DNA of 64,000 nucleotides. Origin: the human T2T-CHM13v2.0 reference genome, Homo sapiens. Location: the NCBI RefSeq assembly GCF_009914755.1, contig NC_060930.1; one strand, written 5' to 3'. Position 1 is the stretch's first letter, and each line of letters begins with the position of its first letter. The notes under the pieces were generated by a model. The model saw only the letters and a list, made by a program, of their open reading frames with translations, was not told the DNA's origin and did not search any database. Below are positions 2,758 through 64,000 of the stretch, one piece after another. Made by a program: the position numbers and the translations under genes.

Positions 2758-2884
2758 CTGGATCGCCTTTCCTGGAGGCCGCTGAAACCCGCAAAGGACT
2801 GGCTTCTAATGATCCCATTGGGCCCTCCAGGCGAAAAAGACTGGGATCCTACCAACATGATTTCCGGGAGTCTGGTCGGTAGTC
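2758..2884 (-). CDS. RIPOR2: RIPOR2 127-nt exon: G|LPTRLPEI then ATG (2858) [33 protein letters not shown]|R; carries the start codon of the shorter isoforms
   Basis: Acceptor TTCCACTGTCTTCTAG|GA at 2885/2884. ATG at 2858-2856 with A at -3. Non-canonical donor CAG|GCAAGT at 2758/2757. Frame continuous with the flanking exons. Confidence 0.96.
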
Positions 2885-3397: not shown

Positions 3398-4249
3398 TTA
3401 CACAAAATTGTCCATCACTTTAGGTTTCCTTCAAGAATTTTTTTTTTTAAAACAAGGTTCAACCACACCCTCAAAAACATGAAAACTGTTGTAACATTTA
3501 TCTCCATTCAACAACAATAAAAACACACAAATAGGCCAAGTCAAAGCTTCAGATAAGTCATGCGTCAAACTGAAAACACAGTCAAGTCTTAAGGCGGAAT
3601 TCTACACCTAGGGGTCATAAAGCTAAAACACTAGGTTACTTTAGAGATGAACTTACTTGAACTAGTTCTCCCTTTCTATCTTTAAGAATATTCTGAAAGC
3701 TAAGATTGTGCCACTACTGTGACAGTGCAAAATAAGAAGGGTAAAGGGAGTGCTCACAAAAGATGTGATAATCTAGGTTAGATAAGAACACAAGGGCGGT
3801 CGGGGGGAAGGTAAGAGGAAAATACAGCAGAAAGCGCACAACTTGTATTTCAGTCTTTTGCTTGGCTTTTGTAAGGACTTACCACAACAGACCAAGAAGC
3901 ATTGTCAAAACACAACTTCAGCTGAGCAGAAGCCCAGGGCTAGTTCCCCCAAAGGATGACCCTGCAACTGTTAGGTAATTCTATTCCTTTTAGATCAGGA
4001 GGAGTCAAAGCACATACCATTGTCTTAGCAGGTGACTTCAATCCAGAGAGGGGGACAGGCTAGCAGGAAAAAGGGTAAATAGTTACTGCCCAGATTGAAG
4101 ACTCCAAAGTGGGCAGACAACAAATCGGTATGTTTGCAGAGTGTCGACAATTGCCCTTTAAAGACTCAAAGAAAGAAAAGCTAAAAAAAACAACAGCAGC
4201 AGAACTCTCTGGTAGTACATCCAGATGTAATGGAAAGACCAATTTCACT

Positions 4250-4520
4250 AGACCTTCCTCAAAGCTACGCGAAGCAGCTCAGCAAGGAAGGCAGTTTGAG
4301 CGAGTTACTTCCCCAGAGAGAGAAGGACAAACAGCCTCCTCCCCCATGTTGCTGCAGGTTTTTAAATCCCCTCCCTCCCTCTCCAGGAGAGAGCAGCCCT
4401 GGAGTTTGTATGCATTCTTGCGAGGTACAGGTGCTGACTCACTTGGCTACAGGTATGGCAATCGGCTTGCTCTTTCATCTGGGTGAGATGCAAATCCCAC
4501 ACTAGCTGGGGAGGAGCAGC
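4250..4520 (-). promoter_or_regulatory. RIPOR2: Candidate proximal promoter and alternative first exon of RIPOR2 (donor unresolved)
   Basis: Repeat-free, mildly CpG-enriched. Octamer ATGCAAAT at 4488-4495, MAF/AP-1-type TGCTGACTCA at 4432-4441 and TATA-like TTTAAAA near 4360. Candidate donors at 4443 (CAA|GTGAGT), about 4309 and 3883 (GTG|GTAAGT). A proximal TSS about 1.5 kb upstream of the ATG exon is recalled. Confidence 0.5.
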
Positions 4521-37469: not shown

Positions 37470-38460
37470 AGTGCCGAAGTCGTTCCGTGCCAGGGGGCCA
37501 CCCAGGACTCCCATCTGGGGGCGCTCGCACACACACCCCTCCCTGACTCCCGGGGCCCGGCGCTTCCTCGCCCCAGAAATGTCCCAACCCCGGGCAATGC
37601 TGTGGGCCCCTCTAACCTTGGCCCGTTCCTCCACTCCCCAGGGCATCCTTCAGTTCTGCTTGCAAAAAGTGCGCGTGCCCCTTTCGCTCAGCAACTTCCC
37701 GACCGTACCCTGTGGGCTTCAGATGCCCGAACCCACCAGGGTGGTGGAAGCTGAGGACGCTCCAGTTTCAACGGCTGCTTAGCATTCAACGCTCATTCAA
37801 GTCGAGGACACCCCTCCCCACACAGACCTCACCGCGTTGTACGCAAAATCAGAAGCAAAAAAGGAGAAATGAAAAGGTGAACCTACCTAACGACGACGGC
37901 TCCTTGTCATGTCAGGGGCACACTCAGGGTTCTCTGGCATATAAAAGCCTCCGCACCAATGCAATGCCCGGAGCTGCCCGCACCTCCGGCTTTGCAGACA
38001 GCCTGAGCTGGCTCACTTGGGTGAAGGGGACCCCGGGAGGAAGTCGGGTGGACGCGAGCTGTCCCCAGCGCCGGCTGCCCTGCCGCGTCCGCTCGCAGCA
38101 GCTGCGGCGCGCGGGGTGAAGTTGCGGGGCTGGCGGGCGCGAGGGTGGCGGAGCGCGGAGCTAGAGCGGCGGAGCGGGCGGAGGGGCGGGAGCCGTGAGG
38201 AGGGGGAGGCGCGGCGCGGGGGCCGGCGGCGTCACTTGTGCTGGGAGGGGAGGGCGGGTGGAGACAGCTGCTTGACAGCTACTTCAGCCCAACTCCAGGA
38301 GGCTGCGCTTCGGTGCCTGCTTCCAGCTGATCGCCGGCACGCCAGGCTCCTTTGCAAGAGCTGGCGCGGCAGCTTTGGAGTGACCCGTGGAATCGCGCCG
38401 GGGAGCGAGCCCGGTGGATCCAGCGCGCTGGAGGGAGAGGGCAGAGGAAAGGAGCCGAGG
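37470..38460. promoter_or_regulatory. RIPOR2: CpG island; internal RIPOR2 promoter
   Basis: Very high GC and CpG density, GC boxes (GGGCGG/GGGGCGGG around 38176-38190) and G-runs. This is the only CpG island in the window. Confidence 0.9.
37887..38036 (-). other. RIPOR2: Probable non-coding alternative first exon of RIPOR2 (5' end approximate)
   Basis: Strong donor TAG|GTAGGT at 37887/37886 at the downstream edge of the island on the minus strand. An alternative donor CAA|GTGAGC lies at 38017/38016. Consistent with a recalled CpG-island RIPOR2 isoform. Confidence 0.65.
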
Positions 38461-55070: not shown

Positions 55071-57022
55071 ATTCCACAGCATATATGTTACTTCCCCTCA
55101 GTTTGGAAGTCTGGAAGCTAAAAATCAAAGATTTAAAAACAACAATGGCTTCAGAATTTCTGTATGCAAAGTACCCAATACAGCAATATGGTTAGAAAAG
55201 GGGTCTGGGCCTTCTCTAGAAGCTGTTTGCAGAGCAACACGTGATTTTTTACTCAGATTGTAGAATGCAGACCACTCAAAACTGCAATGTTTTCTTTAAA
55301 AAGCTTTCTATTACGCTTTCTATTAAGATTAAAAATTTTAATTGATTTTTCAGTTTTTAGAGATGCTTGTGGAGATTAATAGGGGTGTGAGTCATGCCCT
55401 ACCTCAAAAACATTCTTGGTATCCCTCAGCATATGAACCACAAGTTGAAGGAGAAGAGTTTGTTTTTCCTAATATTTTAGTCACGTAATTTATCTGAAGG
55501 CAGTTAAGAGAGTTAAGAGTGCCTTCTACAAATCATATCTGCTTATTTGAGTCTTTGGTATATTTTTTTAAATACCATTCTACTAGTGTATTTTGCTGTT
55601 ATAAATAGAAAGAAAATTCCCACCATAGAAAATGTTTTCATATTTATTCTCTCTCAGAGATTTCTGAAGTTCAATTTATAGAGAATAAAAAAATTATACT
55701 CAAAGGCTCAGCCAGCTGACTCATCTTGTGATCTGAAAGGCAAGTTATCTTTTTGTTACTTCTTACACTGAATGAACAGTTTAGAATGAAGTCAAGAGGG
55801 AGAAGGGACCAGCTGCTCTTACGCTGTTGCTGTGTGAGTGGTATAGTATAAATATTTAAACCTTTAACTCCCAATAATTCAAAGGCAAAGAAAGAAAAAT
55901 CTGTGGAGAAAAGTAGCACCATAACCTCATCACTTTCCGGAAGGCAGCAACGTCTTTCTTCTCTTTATTTTATTTAGAAATAATTGCTGTCTAGGACTAA
56001 ACTTGTAATATAGCCACAGACGAAATAACCCCAGGATCTCTTCTCTGTTTAGAGGTTCTCTATTAATGAAAATCTTTACAAAGCTAGATCCGAGTGTGTT
56101 CTCTCTTCCTCAGTTTGGAAAAGAGACACTTTACCCACCCCAAAAAGTTCCCATGTTTCTCACATTTATATTTTAAGTTTCAAGAGTTTTACTTTGTATC
56201 CATCACTGTGTCTTTAAGTATCTTCTGCGTGAAGCATTTTTTAAGCAAACCGAGACATGAAAAAATTGAAGATAGAGAAAGCCAACATGTGAAAGAATGA
56301 TGACATAAATTATTATTAATTTGCTTTCTGGAGAAACACTGCCAATTATATCTGGCTTTTGATTGCTATCACAGCATAGGTCAAAATCTTTCTCTTAAAA
56401 ATATCTGAAAAGGATAAACTAAATTGTTCTTTTTTTTTTTTTGGAAGGAATATTCTAAATGATAAGATATGCTCTGGCTACACAGCACAAAATAAAGATG
56501 GTTTTTAGCTTACATGATCTGATTTGTCTGTCAACAAGAATCCAACAGTTCAGGCTCTTGACACGTCCCTCTTCAGCCTAGGGTGTGCAGATGTTATGGA
56601 ATCATCACCCTCATAGTCAGCCAAGCACATCCTCATTTCAGGGTCCCAGAAACTAGCACCTGGCACAGCCTGGACCATACTGAATGATGAGGAAGTACAA
56701 GAGAGTTTACTGTCTCATTAGCACTTGCATTTCTAGTTTCATTTTCTTCTTTCCATTTTCACTTTCTAGGACCATTTACTAGTTCTTTTTCTTGCTCTCC
56801 AACTTTTCTCTGTCCTTCTGGTACTTGAAAGAGTCACTTTAATTTGTCTCAACTAATACCTTTTCTCTTTTAAAATATCTTCCAAAATCAACTGAATTTT
56901 AAACATTTTAGTTAAACATCACAGCTTTTGGCAGATAATTAGTAGACAAAATTTTGCCATCCGAAAATAAATGAGAAGTTGAATAAACTGACATTTGCTT
57001 AGCACAATAAAATATAGAAGGC

Positions 57023-58125: not shown

Positions 58126-59546
58126 AAAGATTCAGCATAGTTAAATAGCAATGCTTGTATTTATTTATGTTATAAAATGTGGCATAATCACACAAAAATC
58201 TCCAATCCTCTCTAGCCAAGGCTCATATACTTTTACATTTGATTTCTCTTACTTTTTCCATGGAGGGTATGACTTAACCAGTCTGAACTTTCAACATTTA
58301 CTAGTTTTGTACATAATATGAATTTAATTGCTTTTTTCCCCTTTCTTCTTTCTATTAATTTTGGAAGGAGCAAATACAATTCAGGAAACAATATCAAAAT
58401 ATTCCAGATTATACCAGATTGCATAATTATTTACCTATTAAAAGAAAAATACTACCTTGGTTTTGTAAACAGCCTACATGGAAAGACAAAAAAAATAGGT
58501 ATTTATCCTAATTACAATTCTTTTTGTGTGTGTGTGTGTGTTAAGTGTTTTGTAGTCTTCTTGCTCCCTCTGACCTGAAGTTCCCTTTGAAAAGGAAAAA
58601 GTGCTAACTTACTTGGCTTGGAGAAAGGAGAGAGGCTTGGTTCAAAAGTGACTGCCAATTTTTTTCCAACCAGCTGTTAGTCTCCTTAAGAGCAACAGGC
58701 AGCTAATGGTTGAATGGACTTCCTTTTGCCAGTTCATCTCCATCTGGGAGAGTTCCCCTCCTTTGTGGAGGTTGAAACAACTTTCTCAGACACAGTTATC
58801 CAGGACAGAAGTATTCTCATGCTCAGTTGCACTCTACCAGCTCTGGGGGACATTTGAAAATCTGACAAATGCTTTGTAGTTTCTTGTGATCTTCAAGCAT
58901 AATCTTAAAAGGCATGTAAGTGTCCAGGAAATACAAGAACCTGAGAAATACTTTGCACACTTACTGTGAACTTGGGGTGTTTTATTATTCTAATCATTGC
59001 ACCTGACAAAAGATTACTGAGCAGTGCTGAAAATGGAGGCGGGGCGGGTTGCGTTTCTAAGGAAAGAAGCAATTGCAGCTTTAACTTGTGCCAAGGAGTA
59101 ATTTTGGCTGCTAAAATACTCACTGACCACCACCTGGTGAGCCGTTTGTTCCCACACGTGAATTCTGTTCTGTTCTTGAAAGCAGGATAGGAACCTACAC
59201 TGTGCATGGCCCTTCTTTTTTCCTTTTTTCAATTGTCATCATCATTGTCATCATCATCAGCAGCAGCAGCAGCATTGTTGTAGTCATTACCATTATTACC
59301 CATCCAGTTATTTCCACTAACACTGACCAGACTGGCTGTCAAGATCACACAGTGACAAAACAGATGAAAGCCCTTTAATTTGATAAGTTTGAAAGAACAA
59401 TGGGAAAAGAGTCTGTAAGGCTAACTACTGGTTTTTCACTACCTTGATAATCAAATGAATCATTTCTCCAGGAAAGATTAAGCCTACTTGAGAGTAACCA
59501 TTTTCTAAATGACGTGATGATGTTGTTAGGAAAGCAAACTTAAGAC

Positions 59547-62683: not shown

Positions 62684-63064
62684 TTATTTAACTTCTTCCC
62701 TAGCAGCCCTGCTGTGCTCAAACCACTGTGACAGGCTTTCCTTAAGGTGTTAGACAAGAGATAGCACAGAAGAGAGACAAGGCAAAAAATTTAGTACTAT
62801 TTTCCAGCCTAAACTAAACCTTTATTTTAGTCATGACTTTAAAAAATGTATTTGCGGGAATGACTCAACCCCTTGTTCCACCCCTTGCCTTGTGTATTCC
62901 TTCAGTGCCTAAGTTGATATTTGCAGCCACTACCTCACTCAGGATGCTTTGTTTTTATCATTTCAAAATACTCAAGTCCTTGCCCAAGCTGGGCAAAAGT
63001 GTCCAGTGGTGTCAAAACAAAGCAAAGCAGACCGGAGAGCCTCCTGCCAGAAAGATGCATTTAC

Positions 63065-63125
63065 CTTCACCAAAAACATCATCCTCTTCATCGACCAGGA
63101 GCTCCTCAGCATCAAAAAACTGCAT
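63065..63125 (-). CDS. RIPOR2: RIPOR2 distal alternative first coding exon (MQFFDAEELLVDEEDDVFGE|G)
   Basis: CCAAG-ATG start (A at -3), 61 coding nt, donor AAG|GTAAAT. The phase-1 end joins GA at 2884 to give GGA and an open frame into MLVGSQ. Matches the recalled long RIPOR2 isoform N-terminus. Confidence 0.9.
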
Positions 63126-63450
63126 CTTGGAGAGGACAGGCGCGAGAAGCAGCAGGCAGCAGCCCCGGCAGTCTCAGCAGTCACACTGCCGACCGAGGTG
63201 ATTTCCTTTCCTTGGGTTGCCCAAGCCCTCTGGAGGGCAGCTTCCGCATCTGCCCTGAAGAAAGCAGTTTCATTCATATGAATAGGCTTCTTGAGCCTTG
63301 TGAAGAGTGAATCCCAGGTGGGGTAATTCTCACCACTGAGGAGAAAGAATTTTTTGAAGAGGGCTGCAGATCCGGTTGGATATGAATACAGATATCACTC
63401 AAAGTCTGAATGCAATGAATTCTATTTCAAAGCAACAACTTTCATATTTC
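63126..63450 (-). promoter_or_regulatory. RIPOR2: 5' UTR and distal promoter of RIPOR2
   Basis: Repeat-free, locally GC/CpG-enriched sequence directly upstream of the first coding exon. The TSS cannot be fixed from sequence (about 63190 by recall). Confidence 0.6.
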
Positions 63451-64000
63451 CTTAAAGAGGAAGGTGGGTGCTTAACTTTCTTGCTTATGAATTTGAACAC
63501 AATGGGTTTTGTTGAAAGAGGGAGTTCATATTTCTCATATCTTGGTTTTGCTTCAATTACAATTTATCTGAAAGTAAAGCAAGCCACTATGTTAAACCAA
63601 AGCAGGCATTTAGAGGACAGAGCTTTTATTTTGCTCAGTAATAGTTGCATTTTTCTTTTCTTTTCTTTTCTTTTTTTCAAACCTCTTGCATTTAAGGATT
63701 GGAAACTTTACAGCATTTAAACCAAACTGAACCATATCTAGGCTTTATGTGGCTCGATTAAATCTATAGTCAATGAATAGATAACTGGTTTTGGTCAAAC
63801 ATCTTGCATTTCACAATATTTACTCAGTTTGATACTTCAGACTGTATCACTAAAGGAGAAAGAAGAAAATGTAACTCAAAAAGCAGTCCTCCCAAAGGGA
63901 TGAGTGAACACTGAGCTTCTACGCGAGCACCATTGGCTGGCATCACCATATCGAGCTACCCAACGTGTGCCAAATTCTGTCTGGCTGCACAAACAAACAC

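What the first reader, a model, noticed from the sequence alone, without database searches (positions are those of the whole stretch)
63065..63125. Distal first exon encodes a near-perfect FFAT motif: promoter choice may switch RIPOR2 ER tethering
Seen: the 20-codon exon reads M-QFFDAEE-LLV-DEEDD-VFGE, and it is absent from isoforms that start at ATG 2858. Established: the FFAT core EFFDAxE binds the MSP domain of ER-resident VAPA/VAPB/MOSPD2 at membrane contact sites. QFFDAEE (63122-63102) deviates only at position 1. Unusually, the acidic tract lies downstream of the core rather than upstream, because the core starts at residue 2. Met-Gln is a NatB acetylation substrate type, which would neutralise the N-terminal charge. 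Inference: the distal promoter makes a VAP-binding, ER-contact form of this RHOA regulator, while the CpG-island and proximal promoters make forms without it. I do not recall this being described for RIPOR2.
Basis: partly seen in the sequence, partly recalled or inferred. Interest (0 to 1): 0.82.

Follow-up and report, generated by a model that had tools for sequence, protein, structure and literature searches.

The report
Borderline FFAT look-alike in RIPOR2 exon
The first coding exon of the main human RIPOR2 transcript really does begin with a sequence resembling an ER-tethering (FFAT) motif, but it lacks the acidic lead-in, scores at the cut-off, and exists only in apes and Old World monkeys, so ER tethering is unproven and rather unlikely.

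Summary
The letters are right. Window 63065-63125 (minus strand) encodes MQFFDAEELLVDEEDDVFGE, followed by a GT donor. The exon is not an exotic distal one. It is exon 1 of the MANE Select transcript NM_001286445.3, and a further first exon lies 106 kb upstream.

The heptad Q2-E8 matches the FFAT core at positions 2-5 and 7. The peptide is predicted to be disordered.

Three defining features are not met or are only borderline:
- Only Met lies upstream, so flank charge is 0, against 2.0-5 in five known EFFDAxE genes of this genome.
- My reconstruction of the Mikitova & Levine 2012 score gives 2.0-2.5 suboptimal elements, where the cut-off is 2 or less.
- The core sits in the least conserved part of the exon. 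FFDAxE occurs only in 13 catarrhine species. Other primates have QFLDAE, murids QFLDPEE, and pig, bats and rabbit lose the position-2 aromatic. The acidic tract and the following segment through RLPEIM are nearly invariant.

No searchable main text links RIPOR2 or FAM65B to FFAT or VAP; supplements were closed.

Verdict: a conserved acidic N-terminal extension carrying a lineage-specific, sub-threshold FFAT look-alike.

The parts
63126..63187 (-). 5'UTR of RIPOR2 exon 1 (MANE Select NM_001286445.3). It holds no ATG, and an in-frame stop lies 16 codons upstream of the start.
63065..63125 (-). Coding part of exon 1: 20 codons plus 1 base, MQFFDAEELLVDEEDDVFGE, net charge -9.
63102..63122 (-). 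FFAT-like heptad Q2-F-F-D-A-E-E8. It is the least conserved stretch of the exon, and FF occurs only in catarrhines.
63066..63092 (-). D12-E20: acidic tract DEEDD followed by VFGE, the strongly conserved part of the exon. E13 and D16 are in 52/52 variants and F18 in 51/52.
63063..63064 (-). GT splice donor (AAG|GTAAAT).
2859..2884 (-). 5' part of exon 2. It is coding only in N-terminally extended isoforms (with the last base of exon 1 it gives GLPTRLPEI) and is 5'UTR in isoforms that start at ATG 2858. Nearly invariant in tetrapods, with R-x-P-[ED]-I-M recognisable in fish.
2856..2858 (-). Internal ATG used as the start codon by the isoforms that lack the acidic extension.
63186..63463 (+). First exon of lncRNA LOC105374981 (XR_007076639.1), head-to-head with the RIPOR2 TSS at 63187. 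This is a divergent, non-CpG-island promoter.

Best explanation
This is a real, translated alternative first exon. It gives the main RIPOR2 isoform a disordered, strongly acidic N-terminal extension of 29 residues (net charge of exon 1 is -9).

Selection acts on the second half: the acidic tract DEEDD, then [VI]-F-G-E-G-L-P-x-R-L-P-E-I-M running into exon 2. By inference only, this segment serves as a docking or intramolecular regulatory peptide next to the RHO-binding PL48 domain. Alternative promoters replace it with a basic tail or with nothing.

The FFAT-like heptad at residues 2-8 sits in the poorly constrained first half. The inferred ancestral placental form is Q-[FY]-L-D-[AP]-E-E. A Leu-to-Phe change on the catarrhine stem (parsimony, no tree built) produced FFDAxE.

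Because the heptad has no upstream acidic flank and has Q at position 1, it scores at or just beyond the published cut-off. It is most likely a weak or non-functional look-alike. At best it is a low-affinity, avidity-dependent VAP contact confined to apes and Old World monkeys.
For: Shown:
- Peptide and start-codon context.
- MANE Select status and seven alternative first exons.
- 127 of 229 fetched RIPOR2 proteins carry the acidic exon.
- FFDAxE occurs in 15 of those 127 sequences. They come from 13 species, all catarrhine.
- 3 platyrrhine and 7 strepsirrhine species have QFLDAE[EQ]. Murids and cricetids have QFLDPEE, ruminants and carnivores QYLDPEE. Pig, peccary and elephant shrew have D at core position 2, bats and rabbit S, and pangolin C. 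Marsupials, a bird, tuatara and a frog have no core.
- Identity to human over 52 distinct variants: F3 0.60, F4 0.06 (L 0.71), D5 0.75, A6 0.38, E8 0.79. Against that: E13 1.0, D16 1.0, F18 0.98, G21 0.98, R25 1.0, P27 1.0, M30 1.0.
- Upstream flank charge is 0. It is 2.0-5 in OSBP, CERT1, OSBPL3, OSBPL6 and OSBPL7 in this genome.
- Mikitova & Levine weights are 1.5 for the flank and 1 for position 1. Their cut-off is 2 or less, and targeting was lost at 2.5-3 or more. Their criterion C requires the core to be better conserved than its neighbours.
- The acidic flank drives the first, electrostatic binding step.
- No main-text link between RIPOR2/FAM65B and FFAT, VAPA or VAPB.

Inferred: the function of the conserved acidic segment.
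Against: - Core positions 2, 3, 4, 5 and 7 are optimal.
- Position 1 is the least constrained element, and E1-to-Q occurs in plant FFAT-like motifs.
- FFAT motifs at extreme N-termini exist in rabphilin-11 homologues.
- The peptide is predicted to be disordered: pLDDT below 50 for residues 1-95 and no secondary structure.
- A motif with flank charge 0 and score 2.5 (Fapp2:Hs_x2-EDA) did target the ER when dimerised, TSR 1.35. Fam65b oligomerises through its N-termini.
- The six residues downstream carry charge value 3. The later Di Mattia matrix scores six downstream residues as well.
- Across the 52 variants an FFAT-like skeleton is partly kept: aromatic at core position 2 in 41/52, L or F at position 3 in 40/52, and D or E at position 4 in 49/52.
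- In-frame FFDAxE is rare: 1 of 1040 chr6 genes.
- The score is my reconstruction from Table 1, because Table S2A and the Slee & Levine matrix were not available.
Confidence: 0.6

Rival explanations
1. One reading: the human (catarrhine) N-terminus is a working FFAT motif. The isoforms made from this promoter bind VAPA, VAPB or MOSPD2 and place a RHOA/RHOC regulator at ER contact sites. The downstream acidic tract and RIPOR2 oligomerisation make up for the missing upstream flank.
For: - Optimal core at positions 2-5 and 7.
- Predicted disordered.
- Position 1 is tolerant of substitution, and N-terminal FFATs are known.
- Downstream charge value is 3.
- Dimerised weak motifs with a neutral flank targeted the ER.
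- Fam65b oligomerises.
- Proteome scans that demanded an upstream acid, or that scored about one sequence per gene (20,373 proteins), may have missed it. In mouse UniProt the forms with the acidic exon are listed as isoforms 5 and 6.
Against: - No upstream acidic flank, and a score of about 2.0-2.5 at or beyond the cut-off.
- The core is less conserved than its neighbours, and FF is restricted to catarrhines.
- No interactome or literature support in searchable main text.
- No structure-based test was possible.
Confidence: 0.2
2. The N-terminal half acts through a different short motif, for example the acidic dileucine pattern [DE]xxxL[LI] formed by D5-A-E-E-L-L10, and the FFAT resemblance is incidental.
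For: D5 to L10 fits the recalled pattern. L10 is kept in 42/52 variants and an acid at D5 in 49/52.
Against: - L9 is kept in only 31/52 variants and is replaced by F, P, S or T.
- Such signals are recalled to work in the cytosolic tails of membrane proteins, which RIPOR2 is not.
- The pattern comes from memory and from no call.
Confidence: 0.05
3. The ATG at 63125 is little used, and protein from these transcripts mostly starts at ATG 2858 by leaky scanning. The peptide would then be of minor abundance.
For: The +4 base is C, not G.
Against: - A at -3, no upstream ATG, and an in-frame upstream stop.
- The reading frame and the acidic segment are conserved at protein level from frog to human, including the nine exon-2 codons that are coding only in this frame.
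- The transcript is the RefSeq 'select' model.
Confidence: 0.05

Closest known systems
Canonical FFAT motifs (EFFDAxE with an upstream acidic tract) of OSBP, CERT1, OSBPL3, OSBPL6 and OSBPL7
   Same: Identical residues at core positions 2, 3, 4, 5 and 7. Located in a cytosolic protein, in a region predicted to be disordered.
   Different: Q instead of E at position 1. There is no upstream flank at all: charge value 0 against 2.0-5. The acidic tract lies 4-9 residues downstream. The core is not conserved beyond catarrhines, whereas conservation within families is the hallmark of the known motifs.
Rabphilin-11 (WDR44) homologues: FFAT motifs at the extreme N-terminus
   Same: The motif sits at the very start of the protein (Figure 3C legend of PMC3261905).
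   Different: I did not see those sequences in any call. From memory they keep several acidic residues before the core. In RIPOR2 only Met precedes it.
Weak FFAT-like motifs that need avidity (dimerised Fapp2:Hs EDA, Orp2a:At x2)
   Same: Score around 2.5 and, for Fapp2:Hs, a neutral flank. ER targeting was seen only when dimerised. RIPOR2 oligomerises.
   Different: Those were engineered tandem constructs tested in yeast over-expressing Scs2p. Nothing has been tested for RIPOR2.
FFNT motifs (two phenylalanines in a neutral tract) bound by MOSPD1 and MOSPD3
   Same: Neutral upstream flank.
   Different: FFNT motifs carry fewer acidic elements overall. The RIPOR2 core and its downstream region are strongly acidic. 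Not tested.
Phospho-FFAT motifs such as STARD3
   Same: From memory, STARD3 also has Q at position 1 and acidic residues downstream. Di Mattia et al. extended the scoring to six downstream residues.
   Different: Phospho-FFATs have S or T at position 4 and need phosphorylation. RIPOR2 has D4.

Membership tests
FFAT motif (VAPA/VAPB/MOSPD2 MSP-domain ligand) | Core residues F2, F3 (or Y), D4 (or E), A5 (or C), E7 (or D/S/T) | tested here: met
   Q-F-F-D-A-E-E at residues 2-8. Allowed residues are taken from PMC3261905.
FFAT motif (VAPA/VAPB/MOSPD2 MSP-domain ligand) | Acidic residue at position 1 | tested here: not met
   Q at position 1. This is the least constrained position, and E1-to-Q occurs in plant FFAT-like motifs. 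The penalty is at most about 1 unit.
FFAT motif (VAPA/VAPB/MOSPD2 MSP-domain ligand) | Acidic tract in the six residues upstream of the core | tested here: not met
   Only Met1 lies upstream, so the charge value is 0. Five coding EFFDAxE motifs in the same genome have 2.0-5. The element is weighted 1.5 units.
FFAT motif (VAPA/VAPB/MOSPD2 MSP-domain ligand) | At most 2 suboptimal elements (Mikitova & Levine 2012), or a low score in the Slee & Levine or Di Mattia matrix | tested here: inconclusive
   My reconstruction from Table 1 gives 1.5 (flank) plus 0.5-1 (Q1), a total of 2.0-2.5. Table S2A, Table EV4 and the Slee & Levine paper were not available.
FFAT motif (VAPA/VAPB/MOSPD2 MSP-domain ligand) | Lies in an unstructured, non-helical, accessible region | tested here: met
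   AlphaFold2 on P0121 (first 114 residues identical to human) with a 48-sequence alignment. Residues 1-95 have pLDDT below 50 and no secondary structure. The region is outside PL48, which starts at residue 45. Low confidence is only indirect evidence of disorder.
FFAT motif (VAPA/VAPB/MOSPD2 MSP-domain ligand) | Key residues conserved among orthologues more than neighbouring residues | tested here: not met
   F4 is in 3/52 variants and A6 in 20/52. The neighbours E13, D16, R25, P27 and M30 are in 52/52. FFDAxE occurs only in 13 catarrhine species.
FFAT motif (VAPA/VAPB/MOSPD2 MSP-domain ligand) | Cytoplasmic protein | not tested
   Taken from the literature: Fam65b is a cytosolic or membrane-associated RHO-binding protein (passages of PMC4898930).
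FFAT motif (VAPA/VAPB/MOSPD2 MSP-domain ligand) | Direct MSP-domain binding, lost on FF>AA or D4A and in the VAP KD/MD mutant | not testable with these tools
   The two-protein predictor is off, and no experiment is possible.
FFAT motif (VAPA/VAPB/MOSPD2 MSP-domain ligand) | Recovered in VAP or MOSPD2 interactomes | tested here: inconclusive
   Six main-text searches gave 0-2 papers each, all unrelated gene lists judging by title and abstract. Interactome tables are in supplements, which are closed.

The most novel reading that the evidence does not exclude
A single Leu-to-Phe change on the catarrhine stem turned a pre-existing Q-F-L-D-A-E-E N-terminus into a working, flank-less N-terminal FFAT. 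It would be read by VAP or MOSPD2 through avidity (RIPOR2 oligomers, VAP dimers) and the downstream acidic tract. In apes and Old World monkeys, promoter choice at RIPOR2 would then decide whether this RHOA/RHOC regulator is tethered to ER contact sites. That would be a lineage-specific rewiring, invisible to proteome scans that used canonical sequences and required an upstream acid.
Probability: 0.15. Interest if true: 0.6.

Novelty: new member of a known kind. Interest (0 to 1): 0.3.

Why it matters
If the motif worked, it would link a RHO-family regulator to ER membrane contact sites in an isoform-specific and primate-specific way. RIPOR2 is needed for hair-cell stereocilia (PMC4898930) and, from recall, for T-cell and neutrophil polarity. 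It would also show that a downstream acidic tract can replace the upstream one.

As the evidence stands, the main value is cautionary. A 6-of-7 core match is not a 'near-perfect FFAT' when the flank is missing and the core is the least conserved part of the exon.

The more solid by-product is that RIPOR2's alternative promoters attach conserved N-terminal tails of opposite charge, one acidic and one basic, or no tail. Their function is unstudied in the texts I could search.

Tried and rejected
- Published FFAT matrices. The Slee & Levine 2019 paper is not held. The Di Mattia matrix is in Table EV4 and the 2012 penalties are in Table S2A, both supplements and closed. I therefore reconstructed penalties from Table 1 of PMC3261905. 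The value for Q at position 1 is bracketed, not known.
- Peptide against PDB chains at E up to 10: 0 matches. This is uninformative for a 20-residue query.
- Genome-wide count of coding FFDAxE. The pattern search lists only 100 of 256 matches and gives lower bounds. Exon annotation exists only for chr6, so the CDS intersection covers chr6 alone.
- The EFFDAxE pattern found 8 places, 5 of them in known FFAT genes. Other known FFAT genes were not returned, so that set is incomplete.
- Paralogues. An exact back-translated pattern for E-D-D-[VI]-F-G-E-G matches only RIPOR2 in this genome. The RIPOR1 and RIPOR3 N-termini were not examined further.
- One search was a badly chosen paper search and gave nothing useful. 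One search (RIPOR2 plus NM_001286445) gave 0 papers.
- One search returned 0 rows because I filtered on the wrong feature kind. It was corrected.
- Rejected readings of the conserved V-F-G-E-G-L segment: a second FFAT-like core (G at position 3, P at position 7), an LC3-interacting motif, a gamma-ear motif, a B56 motif and a calcineurin motif. Each was checked by eye against recalled consensus patterns, and none fitted. These patterns come from memory, not from a call.
- Sampling limits. One search lists the best 120 of 1069 hits, ranked by similarity to the catarrhine query, so divergent orthologues are under-sampled and core conservation is if anything overstated.
- Rows excluded from the column counts: 33 proteins with other upstream exons, 69 with no extension or anchor, and one jerboa model (P0090) that has the exon but lacks exon 2. 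Tuatara P0007 and frog P0002 were added by hand because my regular expression missed them.

Full report
**What is there.** On the minus strand, window 63065-63125 reads ATG CAG TTT TTT GAT GCT GAG GAG and onwards. It translates to MQFFDAEELLVDEEDDVFGE plus one base, followed by a GTAAAT donor. The ATG has A at -3 and C at +4. The annotated 62-nt 5'UTR contains no ATG, and an in-frame stop lies 16 codons upstream.

**Which transcript.** Exon 63065-63187 is the first exon of the 'select' transcript NM_001286445.3 (1047 aa) and of three XM models. Five other first exons in the window (4018-4337, 37617-37803, 37887-38117, 56514-56655, 59124-59196) are non-coding and lead to ATG 2858. A seventh first exon lies 106 kb further upstream, outside the window, and is coding. 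It encodes MVLPSRLHWIRNRPWRDRIRRRQLN, a basic peptide. So the exon is neither unusual nor the most distal; it is the reference start. The extension over the ATG-2858 isoforms is 29 residues: 20 from this exon and 9 from the 5' end of exon 2.

**Promoter.** The promoter here is not a CpG island (GC 0.51, CpG o/e 0.34). The 37.5-38.3 kb region is one (GC 0.65, o/e 0.74). A lncRNA model starts head-to-head at 63186.

**Is the match more than chance?** The DNA pattern for F-F-D-A-x-E has 256 matches in the genome against 92 for the reversed control. These are lower bounds, and many matches come from one recurring 18-mer. Of the 12 matches on chr6, only the RIPOR2 one lies in frame in an annotated CDS, among 1040 protein-coding genes. 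The string is therefore rare in coding sequence. A rough estimate from recalled amino-acid frequencies still allows a few chance occurrences per proteome. Rarity alone does not make it functional.

**Scoring.** I read sections 5, 7, 8, 11 and 12 of Mikitova & Levine 2012 (PMC3261905). They define seven elements: positions 1, 2, 3, 4 and 7 (1 unit each), position 5 (0.5), and the charge of the six upstream residues (1.5). In the flank, D/E count 1, S/T 0.5 and K/R -1. Motifs with 2 suboptimal elements target the ER 'at barely discernible levels', and lack of 2.5-3 or more abolishes targeting.

I back-calculated penalties from their Table 1. Flanks with charge value 1 or less cost 1.5. At position 1, S/T cost 0.5, A/M/H cost 1 and K costs 1.5. 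Q is not in the table. RIPOR2 has only Met upstream (value 0, cost 1.5) and Q1 (0.5-1), which gives 2.0-2.5, on or just beyond the cut-off. Their ScanProsite screens required an upstream acid, so this motif could not have been found by them.

As an internal control, I looked at five EFFDAxE sites lying in known FFAT genes of this genome: OSBP, CERT1, OSBPL3, OSBPL6 and OSBPL7. Their upstream values are 5, 2.5, 2.5, 2.5 and 2.0, and their downstream values 0-1.5. RIPOR2 has 0 upstream and 3 downstream. The other three EFFDAxE DNA matches are non-coding. Two have stops in the flank, and one lies antisense to ATP2C1 within a lncRNA span.

The acidic residues matter because they make the first, electrostatic contact with the MSP domain before F2 and A5 dock (section 5 of PMC7610837; passages of PMC7705450).

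**Points in the motif's favour.**
- Position 1 is the least constrained element, and E1-to-Q occurs naturally.
- FFAT motifs at extreme N-termini exist in rabphilin-11 homologues.
- A dimerised motif with a neutral flank and score 2.5 did target the ER.
- Fam65b oligomerises through its N-termini (passages of PMC4898930).
- The Di Mattia matrix also scores six downstream residues.
- AlphaFold2 was run on chimpanzee P0121, whose first 114 residues are identical to the human exons 1-3, with 48 aligned sequences. Residues 1-95 have pLDDT below 50 and no secondary structure. Pfam PL48 starts at residue 45.

**Conservation.** Three chained protein searches gave 229 RIPOR2 proteins. Of these, 127 carry the acidic first exon, 33 carry another upstream exon and 69 have none.

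FFDAxE occurs in 15 of the 127. All 15 are from catarrhines: Pan troglodytes, Pan paniscus, Pongo abelii, Pongo pygmaeus, Hylobates, Symphalangus, Nomascus, two Macaca species, Papio, Colobus, Rhinopithecus and Trachypithecus.

Other lineages:

| Lineage | N-terminal core |
|---|---|
| Saimiri, Aotus, Cebus and seven strepsirrhines | QFLDAE[EQ] |
| Murids and cricetids | QFLDPEE |
| Mouse | QFLDPED |
| Ruminants and carnivores | QYLDPEE |
| Pig and peccary | QDLDPEE |
| Elephant shrew | QDLEAEE |
| Pangolin | QCLDPEE |
| Vespertilionid bats | QSPDPGE or QSRDPGE |
| Rabbit | QSLHAEE |
| Marsupials | QYREDD or QYQEED |
| A bird, tuatara and a frog | acidic residues only |

Over 52 distinct N-terminal variants, identity to human is as follows:

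| Residue | Identity | Note |
|---|---|---|
| F3 | 0.60 | |
| F4 | 0.06 | L is 0.71 |
| D5 | 0.75 | |
| A6 | 0.38 | P is 0.44 |
| E8 | 0.79 | |
| V11 | 0.44 | |
| E13 | 1.0 | |
| D16 | 1.0 | |
| F18 | 0.98 | |
| E20 | 0.96 | |
| G21 | 0.98 | |
| R25 | 1.0 | |
| P27 | 1.0 | |
| M30 | 1.0 | |

So the published conservation criterion, that the core be better conserved than its neighbours, fails. The constrained element is the acidic tract plus [VI]FGEGLPxRLPEIM.

A looser skeleton is kept in many placentals: an aromatic, then Leu, then an acid. Aromatic is present in 41/52 variants, L or F in 40/52, and D or E in 49/52. The catarrhine state is therefore one step from an older, weaker FFAT-like string. 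One search listed only the 120 best of 1069 hits, which biases the sample towards sequences like the query.

**Literature.** I searched FFAT plus RIPOR2, FFAT plus FAM65B, RIPOR2 plus VAPA, FAM65B plus VAPB, RIPOR2 plus VAPB, and FAM65B plus VAPA. These returned 1, 1, 0, 1, 2 and 1 papers. Judging by title and abstract, all are unrelated gene-list papers; I did not open them. Held reviews that mention FFAT many times, such as PMC8306308, did not co-occur with either gene name. Proteome-wide score tables and interactome tables are supplements, which were closed, so RIPOR2 could be listed there. Di Mattia et al. scored 20,373 human UniProt proteins, about one per gene. In mouse the forms with the acidic exon are UniProt isoforms 5 and 6. 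From recall only, the human canonical entry also starts at the internal Met, which would hide the motif from such scans.

**Conclusion.** The exon encodes a conserved, disordered, acidic N-terminal extension whose selected part is not the FFAT-like heptad. The heptad is a catarrhine-specific near-match without the upstream acidic tract, scoring at the threshold of detectability. I put about 0.2 on real VAP binding in human cells and about 0.6 on a weak or non-functional look-alike. The function of the conserved acidic segment is inferred, not shown.

Noticed in passing
L001:234-309 (chr6:24907033-24907108, outside the window): The most distal RIPOR2 first exon encodes a 25-residue strongly basic peptide (8 Arg, 1 Asp). 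It recurs almost unchanged in carnivore, bat, deer and squirrel models (P0030, P0035, P0043, P0046, P0070). RIPOR2 promoters therefore attach conserved N-terminal tails of opposite charge.
   Followed up: partly
proteins P0037, P0038, P0048, P0051-P0053, P0057, P0059, P0063, P0064, P0067, P0069, P0078: Muroid rodents (mouse, rat, voles, lemming, Peromyscus, gerbil) have a third coding N-terminus (MPPGTKRLRA...) spliced to the same exon 2 frame.
   Followed up: no
window 2859-2884 (-): The nine codons of exon 2 upstream of ATG 2858 are conserved as protein. They are nearly invariant in tetrapods, and R-[VF]-P-[ED]-I-M is present in teleost models. N-terminally extended isoforms therefore appear to be ancient, although this stretch is annotated as 5'UTR in most human transcripts.
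   Followed up: partly
window 63275-63277 (-), upstream of the annotated TSS: An upstream ATG (MNE...) is out of frame with ATG 63125 in human. Gnomon or Ensembl models of fallow deer, owl monkey, horse, donkey and a pocket mouse start further upstream in frame, which would make the motif internal and preceded by a basic residue.
   Followed up: no
window 63186-63187: The lncRNA LOC105374981 model XR_007076639.1 starts at 63186 (+) and RIPOR2 exon 1 starts at 63187 (-). The two start sites are head-to-head and overlap by two bases at a non-CpG promoter.
   Followed up: no
G000, many chromosomes (one search list): The 18-mer TTCTTTGATGCCCTTGAG accounts for at least 16 of the 100 listed FFDAxE-pattern matches. 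This suggests a dispersed repeat family inflates the genome count.
   Followed up: no
proteins P0132-P0134 and P0131: Orangutan sequences have Pro instead of Leu at residue 10. One bonobo UniRef record has Asp instead of Gly at residue 19, a position otherwise kept in 47/52 variants.
   Followed up: no
model m4ea34a4f7b54: In the 642-aa isoform only residues of about 100-232 (three long helices) and a beta-rich part at 251-372 are modelled with any confidence. Residues 235-536 fall below pLDDT 50 as a segment. Overall mean pLDDT is 48.
   Followed up: no
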